A stretch of 64,000 bases of DNA, taken from positions 5,146,001 to 5,210,000 of the forward strand of contig NC_092353.1 in the NCBI RefSeq assembly GCF_963676685.1, given 5' to 3'. Positions 45,001-57,000 of this stretch are shown one piece after another. Position numbers: made by a program. The DNA comes from Mytilus edulis (taxonomy: Eukaryota). Numbering within the stretch: the stretch's first letter is position 1; every line of letters begins with the position of its first letter.

Positions 45001-48000
45001 TTAACTGTGTAAAGTTAGCTTTGTTTATATTAATAGGTTTTGCCATTTTATCTTTACGCAATGTTTATAATTATGCGATTTATTAATTACAAAATAACCG
45101 TGTAGCGATTTGTCGCGGTCCTGTCAGTAACACTGACACAATAATATAAATATGCAGTTTATTATTTACTGAATAACAATGTAGCGGCTTGTCAGTAACA
45201 CTGACACAATAATATAAATATGCAGTTTATTATTTACTGAATAACAATGTAGCGGATTGTCAGTAACACTGACACTGTTTTATAACTATGCAATAATTTT
45301 TCAGTGATTAGCCGTATTGCGGAGTGTCAGTAAAACTGACACCAGGAATTTTCCAAATTTTCAAAAATTTTCAAAGTAGATATTTCTATGAAAACAAATG
45401 GATGTATGGGCAATCGGTTATCAGAAATTCTGATATTAAATTTCCATGATTATTATACTCATGAAATATGTAATGTTCTTTTCTATAGGTACAATAACTG
45501 TTTGTTTTCTTTGTTGTGATTTTTCAGTTTTGCCGCCAAAATGTCAGGAAACAATGAATGTCTCGAGTCGATTTAAAGTAAATTCGAACCGACTTCTGAC
45601 ACCAATGTTGTAAAGGTGCAATAATTCGATATACCTTTCCTAATATAAGATGTTGTCTTGGTAGAATATACTGATAGGGCAGGAATCCCAGGGCTGGAGT
45701 TCACCACAAGTGGGTCGTCTGAGCTCCGGATATATTCTGCGAGGTTGCGCAGTAAATACTAACTGAAGTTCCGGTAACAAATCTGGTTGTGGCAATCACT
45801 TTCCGGACATTTACTACAATACTTTGTACCAAGATGAAAATAAAACATAATTCTCTTCATTATGTCCTTCAATTAATCGGGTTCACTTTTTTTATTGAAA
45901 AAAATTCAAATACACATCTTTTTATAATAACATTTGGCAGTGATCACTTCCGGCATGCACGGAAATGCAAAAATGGACACAACAAAAGACGTGGAGATGT
46001 TTACATTGCTCAACGGTGAACTGCTTTTTACAATAACTAACTTGCTGCTCAGAAAATATAGAACATGAGCAGCATTTTGGTGTACTATGAGGCAGTTTCA
46101 CATAAGTCACATACATAGAACGAATCCTCAAACAGTCGTGTTGATCCGTCGACAGAAGAAGAAAAAGGTATAATTTCATGTTTAATGCGACTATCGTAAT
46201 ATCTTTATATGTCGTCTGCCTCCTAGAAATGCCTACCATTAGGAGTGTTAAAGGGCGCTTTTCAACTAAGAAACCTGTAGAAAGAATACATAACTTTATT
46301 GAAAGTAGACGAAAAGTTAAAACACAACCAAAGAAGTTCTCTGTCTCAGACATAGTTTTAGAAGACCACCCTTATTTTATTTCATCATCACTGCAAACAT
46401 CATCTACATTAACCAAATATCCTCCTGAAACCAACAAAAGCTATCACGAACATGACAGAGATGATTTATTTAATGAATATATTCCATCTGATCTTGTCCC
46501 CCTAGACCATTGTAGATTCCTGTGTGAATTGGAGTATTTGGCTAGTCAGCTGAAAAGCTGTATCGGGTGTAACAAACCCCTTCATTTGCACGATGCCAGG
46601 GGTGTTAGATGCTATGGCGTTTCAGGAATTTTGTATATTGTCTGCCATAGACCAATATGTGGTCGTTTAAACAAAATTAAATTAGGGAAGACACATTACC
46701 CTGGTGAAAACAAGAGAGGCATAGGTGTATTTGATGTCAACACTAAAATAGCTACAGGTTAACATGCATTTAAAAATGTTTAATTTTATGTTTATAACAG
46801 TAAGGCCAAGGGACACCAGTTCCCGTTACCAGGTTTTAATTGTAATGATATTCATTGAGCAGAACAAATCGTCCCACTTGTGAAACGTGTTAACTTAAAT
46901 CCTGTCAATCATGTCAATGTTCCTTCGGCCAACTTGTCCAACTTAATGAAAAAGGCAAATGCTAGATGTATATAATTTTCATGTGATGATGTCTGCTAAC
47001 TCTCCAACTTTTGTTGGCATTCAAGTCAAATAAATACTGATAGTCACTTCTTTATGCTTTATTTCAACAAAAAGAAAAGAACTACAAATTAAATATAAGA
47101 AGATGTGGTATGTTGAGCAATGATGACATCCCTTCACAGAACCCAGTATCTCGCCTAATTTATGAAGTTGAGGAACGTTTACTGCAGATTGCATGTAATA
47201 TTTACCATGTTTACTGGAAGACCAGCTACGTCCATATATATATATAAGTAACATTATATTATACAAATATAAAATACAAATACAAACTTTAACCACAGAC
47301 ATGACAGAGTCAATATTTATTTATCTAATGTTTTCATAGATATTAATTTTATTAACTAGTGGGATGGGAACATGATAAATATACAACAGGATTGCATCTT
47401 TTTAATCAAGAAGGGCGAGTTGACAATACTTAATTCATCAGGATTAATCTATTTCTCACAAGTGGGGCGAGTTGACAGACCTTATTTCAGAGTGATTTTT
47501 ACCCTTTTCATAAATGATGCAAGTTAAACAAACCATTTTCAATTCTTTTTCACAAGTGAGGCCATTTGGTAAATCTAATTTGGTCAATTCAGAAAGTGGT
47601 GCAAGTTAAAAAAATGGGGCGGTTTGCCAGTGTGATGATTCTTCATGGATTCAATATACATCCTAATGTCTAAGAGATCCCAATTTTTTTTATACATGTG
47701 TATTATATGCCATAATTTCATGGGTATGTTTGAATATAAAAAAAAGATGTGGTATGATTGGCAATAAGACAACTCTCCACAAGAGACCAAAATGACACAG
47801 ATATTAACAATTATAGGTAACTGTACAGCCTTCAACAATGAGCAAAGCCTATACTGCATAGTCAGCTATAAAGGCCCTGAAATGACAATGTAAAACAATT
47901 CAAACGATAAAAGTAACAGCCTTATTTATTTAAAAAATGAACGAAAAACAAATAAGTAACACATAAACAAACAATAATGATTGAATTACAGGCTTCTGAC

Positions 48001-54000: not shown

Positions 54001-57000
54001 TTGTTTTATAGATTCTTTGAATTTGTTTAAACAGGTTGTTCCTGGTTTAGCATCATACAGTCAGTCTTTTTTAGTTAATAACTTACTAGGACAAGAGTAT
54101 GAGTCACATAATGCTGTCCATGATGCAAGATTATTGCTTAAACTAATAACTGACAAGGGAAATATTTCAAATTACCTTGATGATTTAGCTTTTTCACCAA
54201 ACTATCCTGACCAGTACCACTTGCAGTTGTGCAATTTGAAAACATATTCCAAAGTAATAAAGGAAAAAGTAATTTCAAAAGCTATGGCACTGAAAGCAGC
54301 TAAATCAAATCTGAAATTATGCCATTTGAAAATGTCTATAGATAGAGGTGGTAAAATGGGGCTAATAGCATTACTGTCAGAAAAGTCAGTTAAAACAGGA
54401 GATGTCAGAGTGACAAAAAACAAGAAAATATTACAAAGAATATTTGATTACTTTGAAAAACAATGAATTTTTACTTGGCCTACTTCAACTTTCAGTACAG
54501 ACATACATGTAAATGAGAATTTTTGATATAACAATGTATGAATTTGAATGTAGAATTCTTTACTTGGCCTACATCAAATATTAGTACATGTATCATAATG
54601 TTAGATATGACAATGAATGAATGCATATGTGGAGTTTTTTACTTGGCCTACATCAAATATTACTACATGTATCATAATGTTAGATATGACAATGAATGAA
54701 TGCATATGTGGAGTTTTTTACTTGGCCTACATCAAATATTAGTACATGTATCATAATGTTAGATATGACAATGAATGAATGCATATGTGAAGTTTTTTAC
54801 TTGGCCTACATCAAATATTACTACATGTATCATAATGTTAGATATGACAATGAATGAATGCATATGTGAAGTTTTTTACTTGGCCTACATCAAATATTAG
54901 TACATGTATCATAATGTTAGATATGACAATGAATGAATGCATATGTGAAGTTTTTTACTTGGCCTACATCAAATATTACTACATGTATCATAATGTTAGA
55001 TATGACAATGAATGAATGCATATGTGGAGTTTTTTACTTGGCCTACATCAAATATTACTACATGTATCATAATGTTAGATATGACAATGAATGAATGCAT
55101 ATGTGGAGTTTTTTACTTGGCCTACATCAAATATTAGTACATGTATCATAATGTTAGATATGACAATGAATGAATGCATATGTGGAGTTTTTTACTTGGC
55201 CTGCATCAAATATTACTACATGTATCATAATGTTAGATATGACAATGAATGAATGCATATGTGAAGTTTTTTACTTGGCCTACATCAAATATTAGTACAT
55301 GTATCATAATGTTAGATATGACAATGTATGAATGTGTATACATGAAGAATTGTTTTACTTGGCCTACATCAAATATTAGTAAATGTATCATAATGTTAGA
55401 TATGACAATGTATGAATGTGTATACATGAAGAATTTTTTTATTTGGCCTACATCAAATATTAGTAAATGTATCATAATGTTAGATATGACCATGTATGAA
55501 TGCGTATACATGAAGAATTCTGTACTTGGCCTACATCAATTATAAGTACATGTATGACAATGTTCGATATGATTTTATAAGACAGGGGATATGATTTTTT
55601 TTTAATTGGACTGCATTACTAAGAGATGATGATAAAAGACAGATTAGATATGATTTTTTTTAATTGGACTGCATTACTAAGAGATGATGATAAAAGACAG
55701 ATTAGATATGATTTTTTTTAATTGGACTGCATTACTAAGAGATGATGATAAAAGACAGATTAGATATGATTTTTTTTTAATTGGACTGCATTACTAAGAG
55801 ATGATGATAAAAGACAGATTAGATATGATTTTTTTTAATTGGACTGCATTACTAAGAGATGATGATAAAAGACAGATTAGATATGATTTTTTTTTAATTG
55901 GACTGCATTACTAAGAGATGATGATAAAAGACAGATTAGATATGATTTTTTTTTAATTGGACTGCATTACTAAGAGATGATGATAAAAGACAGATTAGAT
56001 ATGATTTTTTTTAATTGGACTGCATTACTAAGAGATGATGATAAAAGACAGATTAGATATGATTTTTTTTTAATTGGACTACATTACTAAGAGATGATGA
56101 TAAAAGACAGATTAGATATGATTTTTTTTTAATTGGACTGCATTACTAAGAGATGATGATAAAAGACAGATTAGATATGATTTTTTTTAAATTGGACTGC
56201 ATTACTAAGAGATGATGATAAAAGACAGATTAGATATGATTTTTTTTTAATTGGACTGCATTACTAAGAGATGATGATAAAAGACAGATTAGATATGATT
56301 TTTTTTTAATTGGACTGCATTACTAAGAGATGATGATAAAAGACAGATTAGATATGATTTTTTTTTAATTGGACTGCATTACTAAGAGATGATGATAAAA
56401 GACAGATTATATATGATTTTTTTTTAATTGGACTGCATTACTAAGAGATGATGATAAAAGACAGATTAGATATGATTTTTTTTTGATTGGACTGCATTAC
56501 TAAGAGATGATGATAAAAGACAGATTAGATATGATTTTTTTTTAATTGGACTGCATTACTAAGAGATGATGATAAAAGACAGATTAGATATGATTTTTTT
56601 TTCTCTTAGTTATTTGTTTATGTAACACAATGTTAGAGAAGATTGATAAAAAAAAGTGTATGTCGAGTTTTTTTACTTTGCCTACATCAGTCATAAATAC
56701 TAAATACTTGCATGACGAGGCAGATATGATGATATAAGACAGTGGATATGAGATAATTCTTTTGCTTGGCCTACATCAATTATTTGGTTATATATAGGAC
56801 AATATATGTACTATGGATAGTTATATAAGACTGTGTATATAATATTTTTATCTAATTTAGCCTGTAATTAATTGCCTGTCCATTGGCATTGTAGAATGTT
56901 GATATCAATTATTTCATTTGGCCTATATATGTCCAGGTCTGAATTGTTAAAATGATTATAAAACTTATTTTTAAAATATTGTGAAATGTGTTAAGTAGAT

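What the first reader, a model, noticed from the sequence alone, without database searches (positions are those of the whole stretch)
46229..54466. Intron-rich transposase fused to a complete DEDDh exonuclease in a TTAA-targeting giant transposon
Seen: eight exons splice into one ~904-aa frame. It has catalytic-looking D (DTCWQKKG), D (GDDDS) and E (QANES), followed by ExoI/II/III motifs (DLETTG, HN..FD, H.A..D) and a helical C-terminal tail. Established: a TTAA TSD with RR...YY termini characterises Kolobok rather than piggyBac or Mutator, and DEDDh enzymes of the TREX1/PML-like type degrade ssDNA and can restrict retroelements. Inference: this is an autonomous element whose exonuclease trims transposition intermediates or acts as anti-retroelement cargo. 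The ORF track shows it only as fragments.
Basis: partly seen in the sequence, partly recalled or inferred. Interest (0 to 1): 0.7.

Follow-up and report, generated by a model that had tools for sequence, protein, structure and literature searches.

The report
KolobokD transposon with fused exonuclease, mussel
This is a mussel copy of a known kind of jumping gene (KolobokD) whose cutting enzyme is fused to a DNA-trimming exonuclease; the exonuclease's closest known relatives are the fish Plex9 and vertebrate PML exonucleases.

Summary
Eight + strand exons (46229-54466) have 7 of 7 GT-AG introns and no stops, and sum to 2712 nt, or 904 codons.

Exons 1-5 map in order onto one transposase profile (PF20700). 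Exons 7-8 encode a complete DEDDh exonuclease plus a PML_C tail. Annotated bivalve proteins, from Mytilus species and a Solemya protein of 894 aa, carry the same pieces in the same order, with exon ends abutting.

The gene lies in a 23,269-nt insertion (36949-60217). It has duplicated TTAA, GG...CC termini and a 17/20 terminal inverted repeat. Two nearby repeat copies serve as uninterrupted "empty sites". Of that length, 8,780 nt is a later Ty3/gypsy insertion with identical LTRs.

The TSD, the termini and the signature D-CCHC-D-DxxH-Zn finger-E plus exonuclease match KolobokD, described by Kojima & Bao in 2022. So this is a new member of a known kind.

One point is not in print in the library I searched. 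By sequence and fold, the exonuclease is closest to zebrafish Plex9.1, far ahead of Exuperantia and TREX1. How the exonuclease works in the element remains inference.

The parts
36945..36948 (.). Left copy of the TTAA target-site duplication
   Evidence: The left flank 36912-36949 aligns to the uninterrupted repeat copy 60378-60415 and ends at its single TTAA.
36949..60217 (+). Whole KolobokD-type DNA transposon insertion, 23,269 nt. It is 14,485 nt without the nested LTR element and one copy of that element's TSD.
36949..36968 (+). Left terminal inverted repeat. It starts 5'-GG; the first 11 nt are a perfect match to the right end and 17 of 20 match ungapped.
   Evidence: The 15-mer made of TTAA plus 11 nt occurs exactly twice in the window, in inverted orientation. 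None of 100 shuffles had any match.
37039..45818 (-). Nested Ty3/gypsy-order LTR retrotransposon (the virus-like stretch), a later insertion 90 nt inside the left end. Its LTRs are 37039-37251 and 45606-45818, and its TSD ATAC lies at 37035-37038 and 45819-45822. It has three uninterrupted ORFs: gag 43496-45061, pol 38937-43487 and ORF3 37403-38869 (TatD DNase domain).
   Evidence: LTRs 213/213 identical
46229..46757 (+). Exon 1 (176 codons + 1 nt): N-terminal region and the start of the transposase, including a Cys/His-rich segment
   Evidence: PF20700 positions 3-79, 22.8 bits, below cut-off; 39% identity over 187 aa to P0014, E 2e-34; 35% to P0010; 94% to P0028.
48175..48357 (+). Exon 2 (transposase)
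   Evidence: PF20700 positions 79-133
49162..49254 (+). Exon 3, with the first catalytic D (DTCW)
   Evidence: D conserved in 25/26. In the model of relative P0010 the matching D lies on strand 241-251.
49799..49947 (+). Exon 4, with the CCHC zinc finger that follows the first D
   Evidence: C 26/26, C 24/24, H 24/25, C 24/25. This feature is described for KolobokP/E/D/5.
51356..52006 (+). Exon 5. In order it holds the second catalytic D (GDDDS), the DxxH signature, an H-H-C-C zinc finger, the catalytic E (QANES) and a conserved region after the core.
   Evidence: PF20700 positions 224-357, E 1e-19; all the named residues 28/28.
52683..52881 (+). Exon 6: lysine/arginine-rich linker between transposase and exonuclease. 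Calling it a nuclear localisation signal is my inference.
   Evidence: 45-47% identity to Mytilus paralogues, 33% to Solemya P0010, 100% to P0001. No Pfam hit.
53232..53354 (+). Exon 7, with exonuclease motif I (DLETTG)
   Evidence: D and E 26/26.
53679..54466 (+). Exon 8: the rest of the DEDDh exonuclease (motifs II and III), the helical PML_C domain and the stop codon
54518..56602 (.). Two satellite arrays just after the stop codon, inside the element: 79 nt x 13.2 and 59 nt x 17.3
60198..60217 (-). Right terminal inverted repeat (ends ...CC-3')
60218..60221 (.). Right copy of the TTAA target-site duplication
60378..60476 (+). Paralogous 'empty site'. This uninterrupted copy of the repeat that was hit matches the left flank up to one TTAA (60411-60414) and the right flank from that same TTAA. 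A second such copy starts at 60736.
   Evidence: In one search, 0 of 500 shuffles reached either flank's score.

Best explanation
Window 36949-60217 is one insertion of a KolobokD-lineage element (Kolobok superfamily, cut-and-paste DNA transposon) in a Mytilus genome.

Shown:
- It is bounded by a duplicated TTAA and short GG...CC inverted termini.
- It carries one 8-exon, 904-codon gene.
- The product reads, in order: an N-terminal Cys/His-rich region; a DDE transposase with the Kolobok signature D - CCHC finger - D - DxxH - zinc finger - E; a basic linker; a complete DEDDh 3'-5' exonuclease of the Plex9/PML type; and a helical PML_C (SAM-like) tail.
- A Ty3/gypsy retrotransposon with identical LTRs later landed 90 nt inside the left end.

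Inferred:
- The transposase binds the two ends, excises the element and integrates at TTAA.
- The exonuclease travels with the transposase because it is the same polypeptide. It trims 3' DNA ends of excision or integration intermediates, or of the broken donor site. This is the role Kojima & Bao proposed.
- I put about 0.9 on the identity and about 0.45 on this role of the exonuclease. The confidence given for this explanation (0.85) refers to the identity and architecture.
For: Boundaries.
- Among 467 x 91 TTAA pairs flanking the gene, the best pair is 36945/60218, with an 11-nt perfect start and 18 of 24 matches.
- The 15-mer occurs exactly twice, inverted; 0 of 100 shuffles had any match.
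- The ungapped repeat is 17/20.
- Both flanks align to contiguous repeat copies and meet at one TTAA. 0 of 500 shuffles reached either score.

Gene.
- 7 of 7 introns are GT-AG, there are no stops, and the exons total 904 codons.
- The Pfam pieces are collinear.
- Exon-by-exon matches abut on P0001, P0004, P0012, P0014 and P0010.

Fusion.
- 11 of 11 longer hits to e8 carry PF20700 plus PF00929, and 10 of 11 also carry PF25244.
- 18 of 26 longer hits to e5 carry both a transposase and an exonuclease-side domain.
- Of the 30 representative-library hits of at least 455 aa among the top 150, 20 carry PF20700. Four more match e5/e6 by blastp.

Kolobok definition. I read it in PMC9587614: TTAA TSD, 5'-RR/YY-3' termini, C/DxxH, a zinc finger before E, CCHC after the first D in KolobokP/E/D/5, and a DEDDh exonuclease in KolobokD, found in mollusks. 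All the corresponding residues are conserved at 24/25 to 28/28. In the AlphaFold model of the Solemya relative (pLDDT 83) the D, D and E lie on strand 241-251, at the end of strand 333-340 and on helix 481-493. That is an RNase H-like layout.

Exonuclease.
- Plex9-type PDB chains score E 6e-25 with the single sequence and 7e-56 with the profile. Exuperantia scores 1e-14 and TREX1 4e-10.
- The e8 model has pLDDT 95. It matches Plex9.1 (9MRC/9MRD) with TM 0.82-0.83 and rmsd 1.5-1.6 A.
- zfPlex9.1 degrades ssDNA and dsDNA with Mg/Mn (PMC10123124, section 24).

Multi-copy. Pieces 88-100% identical over at least 40 aa occur in 10 gene models of M. galloprovincialis, M. edulis and M. coruscus. In M. 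coruscus they sit on contigs of 4 different lengths.

For the role. Other Kolobok lineages carry other DNA-end enzymes: a lambda-exonuclease-like nuclease, a RecQ helicase and a His-Me nuclease. Repeated pairing with such enzymes fits a part in the transposition chemistry.
Against: - No eukaryotic genome collection was available, so no second genomic copy with the same termini could be read. The inverted repeat is short.
- No named Kolobok reference sequence could be compared. Repbase is not held here and the paper's alignment files are supplements, which were closed.
- Pfam labels the transposase 'Mutator-like'.
- e1 alone got no Pfam hit. Two of the five transposase pieces score below the gathering cut-off.
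- All supporting proteins are computational gene models. No transcript data were seen.
- All named relatives are bivalves. The taxa of the unnamed relatives could not be looked up.
- Nothing here bears directly on what the exonuclease does. Its best-studied relatives act as host restriction factors against retroelements, not in transposition (abstract).
- The retrotransposon insertion near the left end may have disabled this copy.
Confidence: 0.85

Rival explanations
1. The exonuclease is cargo rather than part of the transposition chemistry. Like TREX1, Plex9 and gar PML, it would degrade cytoplasmic or reverse-transcribed DNA, either to restrain competing retroelements or to keep the element's own DNA by-products from alerting the host.
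For: The closest characterised relatives do this. Gar PML and zebrafish Plex9 suppressed L1 retrotransposition and could stand in for TREX1 (abstract). zfPlex9.1 degrades ssDNA and dsDNA. Plex9.1 is the top match by sequence and fold.
Against: The exonuclease is covalently joined to the transposase through a conserved linker in most relatives: 11/11, 18/26 and 24/30. This ties it to where the transposase works. Sister Kolobok lineages carry other DNA-end enzymes instead. No localisation or expression data were available.
Confidence: 0.25
2. The tail is a nucleic-acid-binding pseudo-exonuclease, as in Exuperantia and human PML-1 (PXL). It would help the transposase hold DNA or RNA without cutting.
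For: Exuperantia and PXL share the EXO plus SAM-like layout and are inactive (passages of PMC13659232). The Exuperantia EXO+SAM structure 5L80 is the next-best fold match after Plex9.1.
Against: All five DEDDh residues are present here and are kept in 26/26 to 27/27 relatives (H 26/28). PXL keeps only one of the four acidic residues. The sequence match to active Plex9-type chains is far stronger than to Exuperantia: 7e-56 against 1e-14.
Confidence: 0.05
3. This is a domesticated, transposase-derived host gene, not a mobile element.
For: The frame is long and intact with seven introns. RefSeq lists near-identical 'uncharacterized protein LOC...' genes in several Mytilus species.
Against: The gene sits between inverted termini with a TTAA duplication, and paralogous uninterrupted target sites exist. 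There are many diverged paralogues per species (51-98% identity) and near-identical pieces on several contigs.
Confidence: 0.04
4. The transposase and the exonuclease are two neighbouring genes wrongly read as one.
For: No transcript evidence was seen. The e6 linker and e7 have no Pfam hit. Many database hits are short exonuclease-only proteins.
Against: e5-e6-e7-e8 abut without gaps on P0001 at 90-100% identity and on seven other relatives, including Solemya. There is no stop before each donor site and the phases are compatible. The short exonuclease-only hits mostly come from contigs of 1-3 kb, which can hold little more than the single 785-nt last exon. They therefore do not show a stand-alone gene.
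Confidence: 0.04
5. It belongs to Mutator/MULE (as the Pfam name suggests) or to piggyBac (because of TTAA).
For: PF20700 is called 'Mutator-like transposase'. piggyBac also duplicates TTAA.
Against: The duplication is 4 nt (TTAA), not the longer one of MuDR (recalled). A zinc finger between the second D and E is stated to be absent from MuDR, P and hAT. The termini are RR/YY, which the paper gives as the difference from piggyBac. No classical MULE or piggyBac Pfam model appeared at E<=0.1.
Confidence: 0.02

Closest known systems
KolobokD lineage of the Kolobok superfamily (Kojima & Bao, Mob DNA 2022, PMC9587614)
   Same: TTAA duplication, RR/YY termini, the signature string D-CCHC-D-C/DxxH-zinc finger-E, a DEDDh (DnaQ) exonuclease with likeness to Exuperantia/TREX, and occurrence in mollusks.
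   Different: The passages I read call the exonuclease an 'accessory protein' and do not say it is fused. They do not mention the PML_C tail, PML or Plex9: 'PML' occurs 0 times. This copy also holds a nested retrotransposon and satellites. No direct sequence comparison with a named KolobokD family was possible.
Zebrafish Plex9.1 and the PML C-terminal DEDDh exonuclease domain (PMC10123124; PDB 9MRC/9MRD)
   Same: Best match by sequence (E 4e-21 single, 7e-47 profile for 9MRC; 6e-25 and 7e-56 for the related chain 9L8B) and by fold (TM 0.82-0.93, rmsd 1.5-1.6 A, 31-37% identity). The DEDDh residues are intact. The Pfam PML_C tail scores 72 bits.
   Different: Plex9 genes are syntenic host genes of fishes, and PML carries an RBCC/TRIM front. 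Here the front is a transposase inside a mobile element of a mollusc. This is a relative, not an orthologue.
Drosophila Exuperantia (PDB 5L80/5L7Z)
   Same: EXO-like plus SAM-like two-domain layout. It is the second-best fold match and aligns over 293-319 columns. Pfam Exu_RNase_H_like scores 30.5 bits.
   Different: Exuperantia lacks the catalytic residues. Sequence likeness is much weaker (1e-14). No SAM_Exu Pfam hit appeared.
TREX1/TREX2
   Same: DEDDh fold and 3'-5' DNA exonuclease chemistry.
   Different: Distant: E 0.004 single and 4e-10 profile, TM 0.5-0.6.
KolobokE, KolobokH and KolobokP
   Same: Kolobok transposases paired with another DNA-processing enzyme.
   Different: Those enzymes are a lambda-exonuclease-like nuclease, a RecQ helicase and a His-Me nuclease, not a DEDDh exonuclease.

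Membership tests
Kolobok superfamily | [quoted passage not shown] | tested here: met
   TTAA at 36945-36948 and 60218-60221. Both flanks meet at one TTAA in uninterrupted paralogous copies. Definition read.
Kolobok superfamily | Termini 5'-RR ... YY-3' (unlike piggyBac) | tested here: met
   The element starts GG and ends CC. Definition read.
Kolobok superfamily | DDD/E transposase with a C/DxxH motif between the second D and E | tested here: met
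   e3 D 25/26; e5 D27 and D29 28/28; D50..H53 28/28; E175 28/28. Layout on the P0010 model.
Kolobok superfamily | Zinc finger after C/DxxH and before the catalytic E (all lineages but Kolobok1) | tested here: met
   e5 H108, H113, C116, C121, each 28/28. Definition read.
Kolobok superfamily | Sequence likeness to a named Kolobok reference (Repbase), or placement in a Kolobok tree | not testable with these tools
   No Repbase or eukaryotic repeat library is held here. The paper's alignments are supplements, which were closed.
KolobokD lineage | Second zinc finger (CCHC) just after the first catalytic D | tested here: met
   e4 C22 26/26, C25 24/24, H38 24/25, C40 24/25. Definition read.
KolobokD lineage | Encodes a DEDDh (DnaQ) exonuclease resembling Exuperantia/TREX/ERI1 | tested here: met
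   Definition read.
DEDDh exonucleases | Motif I D-x-E, motif II D, motif III H-x4-D | tested here: met
   e7 D34/E36, e8 D85, e8 H143/D148, conserved in 26/26 to 27/27 relatives (H 26/28).
PML-CDE / Plex9 exonuclease family | Exonuclease domain closer to Plex9/PML than to TREX | tested here: met
   Plex9-type chains score 7e-56 to 7e-47, against TREX1 at 4e-10. Fold TM 0.82-0.83 against 0.5-0.6.
PML-CDE / Plex9 exonuclease family | PML C-terminal domain (PF25244) after the exonuclease | tested here: met
   72.2 bits against a cut-off of 27.1. The region is helical, residues 162-260 of the e8 model, pLDDT 95.
PML protein proper | RBCC/TRIM N-terminal part; a syntenic vertebrate host gene | tested here: not met
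   The N-terminal part is a transposase and the host is a mussel. It is therefore a relative of the domain, not a PML orthologue.
MuDR/Mutator | Longer target-site duplication (about 9 bp, recalled) and no zinc finger between the second D and E | tested here: not met
   The duplication is TTAA, 4 bp. The finger is present; its absence from MuDR is stated. Only the Pfam label says 'Mutator-like'.
piggyBac | TTAA duplication with piggyBac-type termini and a piggyBac transposase domain | tested here: not met
   TTAA is met, but the termini are RR/YY (one search gives this as the difference). No piggyBac Pfam model appeared at E<=0.1.

The most novel reading that the evidence does not exclude
The two-domain module at the end of this transposase (DEDDh exonuclease plus PML_C tail) is the same module as exon 9 of vertebrate PML and the fish Plex9 genes. 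It is widespread as the tail of KolobokD transposases in invertebrates. PML and Plex9 are reported to appear first in jawed vertebrates, with no older source named.

The boldest reading not excluded is that the PML/Plex9 exonuclease was taken from a KolobokD-type transposon in an early vertebrate. That would be a transposon domestication behind a well-known human protein.

Evidence in its favour:
- Both domains are shared.
- Plex9-type chains are about 34% identical to the mussel exon 8, by my count on the alignment. That lies within the 26-38% span between KolobokD exonucleases of different bivalves.
- Kolobok elements occur in chordates.
- No paper in the searched library holds both 'Kolobok' and 'promyelocytic leukemia'.
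- The two PML papers hold 0 mentions of Kolobok or transposase.

Open points: the direction of transfer is not settled. An old host gene, perhaps one that also gave rise to Exuperantia, could be the source of both. I could build no tree, because no vertebrate sequence came back as a usable protein.
Probability: 0.35. Interest if true: 0.65.

Novelty: new member of a known kind. Interest (0 to 1): 0.3.

Why it matters
As a transposon the locus is ordinary: a well-preserved example of a lineage that so far has one paragraph in one paper. It still adds three things.

- It shows the full anatomy of a KolobokD copy: ends, target site, an 8-exon gene, and the exonuclease fused in frame to the transposase.
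- It gives RefSeq's 'uncharacterized protein' models in at least nine bivalve species a name.
- It ties the transposon's exonuclease to the Plex9/PML family rather than to TREX1.

If the third link reflects descent, it offers a source for a domain of PML whose origin the PML literature leaves open.

Tried and rejected
- **Wrong inverted repeat.** The longest far-apart inverted repeat near the gene (18869-18962 / 60517-60611) is not the element's end. It has no TTAA and its right arm lies outside the right TTAA.
- **Taxa of unnamed relatives.** The Atlas listing gave mostly Mollusca, one Chordata cluster and arthropod Exuperantia. These are leads only.
- **Search for vertebrate relatives.** A profile search for proteins of near length returned only Mytilus and unnamed short-contig proteins. 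No vertebrate Plex9 or PML came back, so no phylogeny was made.
- **Fold neighbours of the transposase core.** The search with the full-length Solemya model was filled by exonuclease hits in all 50 rows shown, so the neighbours of the transposase core remain unknown. By sequence, e5 matches no solved structure (5 hits, best E 0.55).
- **Other ORFs.** Pfam scans of ORFs at 56.9-60.8 kb, 3.4, 15.2 and 32.2 kb found nothing.
- **Other copies in the window.** tblastn with 28 family proteins found no second copy in the window: 0 of 113 hits fell outside 46000-54600.
- **Literature.** 'PF20700' occurs in 0 papers. PDB codes 9L85/9L8B/9L87 led to no relevant paper, so the source organisms of those chains are unknown to me.
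- **Sub-terminal similarity.** Beyond 20 nt there was no likeness between the two ends (19 of 40 matches).
- **Joined protein.** I left out the step of joining the eight exons. Length is a sum, and the full-length architecture was read from natural relatives instead.

Full report
**Source and scope.** The window is 64,000 nt with no N and about 33% G+C. Its proteins are 97-98% identical to RefSeq models of Mytilus galloprovincialis and 94-96% identical to M. edulis and M. coruscus. It is mussel DNA, not human. The 904-codon length is a sum of exon lengths. The full-length architecture was read from natural relatives.

**The observation.**
- Stop-free pieces on the + strand and the junction sequences give eight exons: 46229-46757, 48175-48357, 49162-49254, 49799-49947, 51356-52006, 52683-52881, 53232-53354 and 53679-54466.
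- In one search, 7 of 7 introns are GT..AG, 0 of 8 exon translations contain a stop, and the lengths sum to 2712 nt, or 904 codons.
- The introns are 1417, 804, 544, 1408, 676, 350 and 324 nt.
- The pieces holding exons 1-5 hit one Pfam profile, PF20700, in ascending order (positions 3-79, 79-133, 144-175, 177-226, 224-357). E-values run from 5e-05 to 1e-19, and two of the five pieces score below the gathering cut-off.
- The last piece hits PML_C (72.2 bits), RNase_T (37.8) and Exu_RNase_H_like (30.5), all above their cut-offs.
- Exon 7's piece had no Pfam hit. Exon 1 alone had none at E<=0.01.

**Independent support for the splice model.** Exon-by-exon blastp lands on abutting stretches of annotated proteins.
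- On P0004 (M. californianus, 737 aa): e2 9-68, e3 71-100, e4 102-150, e5 152-367, e6 368-433, e7 439-472, e8 474-736.
- On P0014 (M. coruscus, 921 aa), e1 to e8 run from residue 24 to 808.
- On P0001 (M. galloprovincialis), e5-e8 cover 1-573 at 90-100% identity.
- On P0010 (Solemya velum, 894 aa), seven of the eight exons match in order. e7 gave no hit at E<=0.01.
- P0010 carries PF20700 over its full profile (79-433), RNase_T (623-786) and PML_C (821-890).

**How common the fusion is.**
- All 11 longer proteins found with e8 carry PF20700 and PF00929, and 10 of 11 also carry PF25244.
- Of 26 longer proteins found with e5, 18 carry both a transposase and an exonuclease-side domain. Four carry PF20700 only, three the exonuclease side only, and one carries nothing.
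- The named species are nine bivalves: five Mytilus species, Solemya, Ruditapes, Crassostrea virginica and Mercenaria.
- A search of 1.84 billion representatives with e8 gave 1725 hits at E<=0.001, 844 at 1e-10 and 97 at 1e-30.
- I scanned the 30 hits of at least 455 aa among the 150 listed. Twenty carry PF20700 at E<=1e-5, and four more match e5/e6 by blastp.
- Two of the remaining six hold three or four exonuclease repeats. Four have N-terminal parts with no Pfam match.
- The many short exonuclease-only hits come mostly from contigs of 1-3 kb. Such contigs can hold little more than the single last exon, so they do not show a stand-alone gene.

**Residues.** Each exon peptide was added separately to an alignment of 28 fusion relatives.
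- Transposase core: the first D (DTCW) 25/26; a CCHC set in e4 at 24/25 to 26/26; two D of GDDDS 28/28 each; D..H of a DxxH motif 28/28; an H-H-C-C set 28/28; the E of QANES 28/28.
- Exonuclease: motif I D and E 26/26; motif II H, N, D 26/26; motif III H 26/28 and D 27/27.
- In the AlphaFold model of P0010 (33 sequences, pLDDT 83.3, pTM 0.60), the matching D248, D341/D343 and E484 sit on strand 241-251, at the end of strand 333-340 and on helix 481-493. This is the usual RNase H-like layout, with an all-helical insertion that holds the DxxH motif and the finger.

**The element.**
- I compared 467 TTAA sites upstream of the gene with 91 downstream. The best pair is 36945 and 60218, with 11 perfect leading bases and 18 of 24 matches.
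- The repeat is 17 of 20 ungapped, with nothing shared beyond that (19 of 40).
- The 15-mer of TTAA plus 11 nt occurs exactly twice in the window, in inverted orientation. With up to two mismatches there is no further site. None of 100 shuffles had an exact match.
- The element starts GG and ends CC.
- The sequence it hit is itself a repeat. The left flank (36912-36949) and the right flank (60218-60290) align to one uninterrupted copy at 60378-60476 and meet there at a single TTAA. A second copy from 60736 behaves the same way.
- None of 500 shuffles reached either flank's score.
- The insertion is 23,269 nt. No second copy or fragment of the gene lies elsewhere in the window: 0 of 113 tblastn hits fell outside 46000-54600.

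**What else is inside the element.**
- A Ty3/gypsy-order LTR retrotransposon lies on the minus strand at 37039-45818 (8,780 nt), 90 nt inside the left end.
- Its LTRs are 213 of 213 identical and read TG..CA. It is flanked by ATAC on both sides. My first notes had these bounds wrong by 3-5 nt; one search corrects them.
- It has three uninterrupted ORFs. These are gag (Retrotrans_gag, zinc knuckle), pol (protease, RT, RNase H, integrase) and a third ORF with a TatD DNase domain (E 3e-42).
- This is the virus-like stretch. I only describe it.
- Without it the host element is 14,485 nt. That includes two satellite arrays just after the stop codon (54518-56602) and a 161-nt array in intron 4.

**What it is.** Kojima & Bao (PMC9587614; passages, section 10 in full) define Kolobok by four features: a TTAA duplication; 5'-RR and YY-3' termini, as opposed to piggyBac; a C/DxxH motif shared with hAT, P, MuDR and Dada; and a zinc finger between that motif and E, which MuDR, P and hAT lack.
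- A second CCHC finger after the first D marks KolobokP, E, D and 5.
- KolobokD is the lineage that encodes a DEDDh exonuclease. [quoted passage not shown]
- Every one of these features was tested here and met.
- 'KolobokD' occurs in that one paper only.
- A direct comparison with a named KolobokD family was not possible. No repeat library is held here, and the paper's alignment files are supplements, which were closed.
- The Pfam name 'Mutator-like' is a label only. 'PF20700' occurs in 0 papers.

**The exonuclease.**
- Against the PDB by sequence, e8 matches four chains deposited as 'exodeoxyribonuclease III' (9L8B, 9L85, 9MRD, 9MRC) at E 6e-25 to 4e-21. TREX1 scores 0.004.
- With a profile of 29 sequences (A1), the four chains reach 7e-56 to 7e-47, Exuperantia 1e-14 and TREX1/2 4e-10.
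- 9MRC and 9MRD are zebrafish Plex9.1. I could not find what 9L8B and 9L85 are from.
- The AlphaFold model of e8 (pLDDT 95.0, pTM 0.83) matches Plex9.1 at TM 0.82-0.83 (normalised to the target) and rmsd 1.5-1.6 A. The Exuperantia EXO+SAM structure comes next, then TREX1/2.
- The Solemya model gives the same order, with TM 0.92-0.93 to Plex9.1.
- Residues 162-260 of the e8 model are helical.
- zfPlex9.1 degrades ssDNA and dsDNA with Mg or Mn (PMC10123124, section 24 read in full). An active 3'-5' DNA exonuclease is therefore the expected activity here.

**How it probably works.**
- Shown: the architecture, the intact catalytic residues of both enzymes, and the insertion signature.
- Inferred: the transposase cuts and joins at TTAA, and the tethered exonuclease trims 3' ends of intermediates or of the donor break. 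Kojima & Bao suggested this.
- I favour this role (about 0.45) over a TREX1-like cargo role (about 0.25) for two reasons. The fusion and its linker are conserved. Sister Kolobok lineages carry other DNA-end enzymes.
- A binding-only pseudo-exonuclease is unlikely, given the conserved DEDDh residues.

**Copy number.** Pieces 88-100% identical over at least 40 aa occur in 10 gene models of three Mytilus species. In M. coruscus they lie on contigs of four different lengths. More distant paralogues, at 51-74% identity, are numerous. This fits a repeated, diversified family. No genomic copy outside the window could be read.

**Novelty.** The kind is known, and this is a new, well-preserved member. 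One point is not in print in the library I searched: the tie to PML/Plex9.
- The PML papers hold 0 mentions of Kolobok, transposase or invertebrates.
- 'Kolobok' with 'promyelocytic leukemia' gives 0 papers.
- 'PML', 'exonuclease', 'transposase' and 'domesticat' together give 3 unrelated papers.
- The KolobokD paragraph names Exuperantia, TREX and ERI1 but not PML.
- Whether the vertebrate domain descends from such a transposon is open. I could not build the tree, because no vertebrate sequence came back as a usable protein.

**What stayed unchecked.**
- The metagenome and viral contig collections (closed).
- Supplements of the Kolobok paper.
- Transcript support for the junctions.
- Fold neighbours of the transposase core (one search was filled by exonuclease hits; e5 has no sequence match in the PDB).

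Noticed in passing
window 37039-45818 (minus strand); ORF3 37403-38869: The nested Ty3/gypsy-order LTR retrotransposon has identical 213-nt LTRs and an ATAC duplication. It carries a third ORF of 488 aa where env would sit, with a TatD-related DNase domain (PF01026, E 3e-42, residues 219-486). A search for 'TatD' + 'LTR retrotransposon' + 'gypsy' found 0 papers, and the Atlas gave no usable hit. So two unrelated mobile elements at this locus each carry a DNA nuclease beyond their integration enzyme.
   Followed up: partly
window 54518-55572 and 55588-56602: Two clean satellite arrays (79 nt x 13.2 at 94% match; 59 nt x 17.3 at 98% match) begin about 50 nt after the stop codon of the transposase gene, inside the element.
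   Followed up: no
window 50651-51192: A 161-nt tandem array (3.4 copies, 86% match) lies inside intron 4 of the transposase gene.
   Followed up: no
window 17253-17306, 17996-18034, 25992-26040, 47740-47788, 58806-58953: A short interspersed repeat of about 40-50 nt recurs in both orientations. One copy is in intron 1 of the gene and one is near the right end of the element.
   Followed up: no
window 12055-14732: A large 25-nt-period satellite is arranged as inverted blocks: arms of about 600-660 nt, 85-87% complementary.
   Followed up: no
window 18869-18962 and 60517-60611: Inverted arms of about 95 nt (77-87% complementary) lie 41.6 kb apart. They are not the ends of the element: there is no TTAA, and the right arm lies outside the right target-site copy. 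They are probably two copies of another repeat.
   Followed up: partly
window 60341-61058: The target of the insertion is itself a repeat with units about 358 nt apart and internal sub-repeats (D17, 15, 16, 56). Its nature is unknown, and the 165-aa ORF across it has no Pfam hit.
   Followed up: partly
proteins P0076 (1333 aa) and P0093 (871 aa), from the representative library: Two unnamed relatives carry four and three tandem copies of the exonuclease domain and no recognisable transposase.
   Followed up: no
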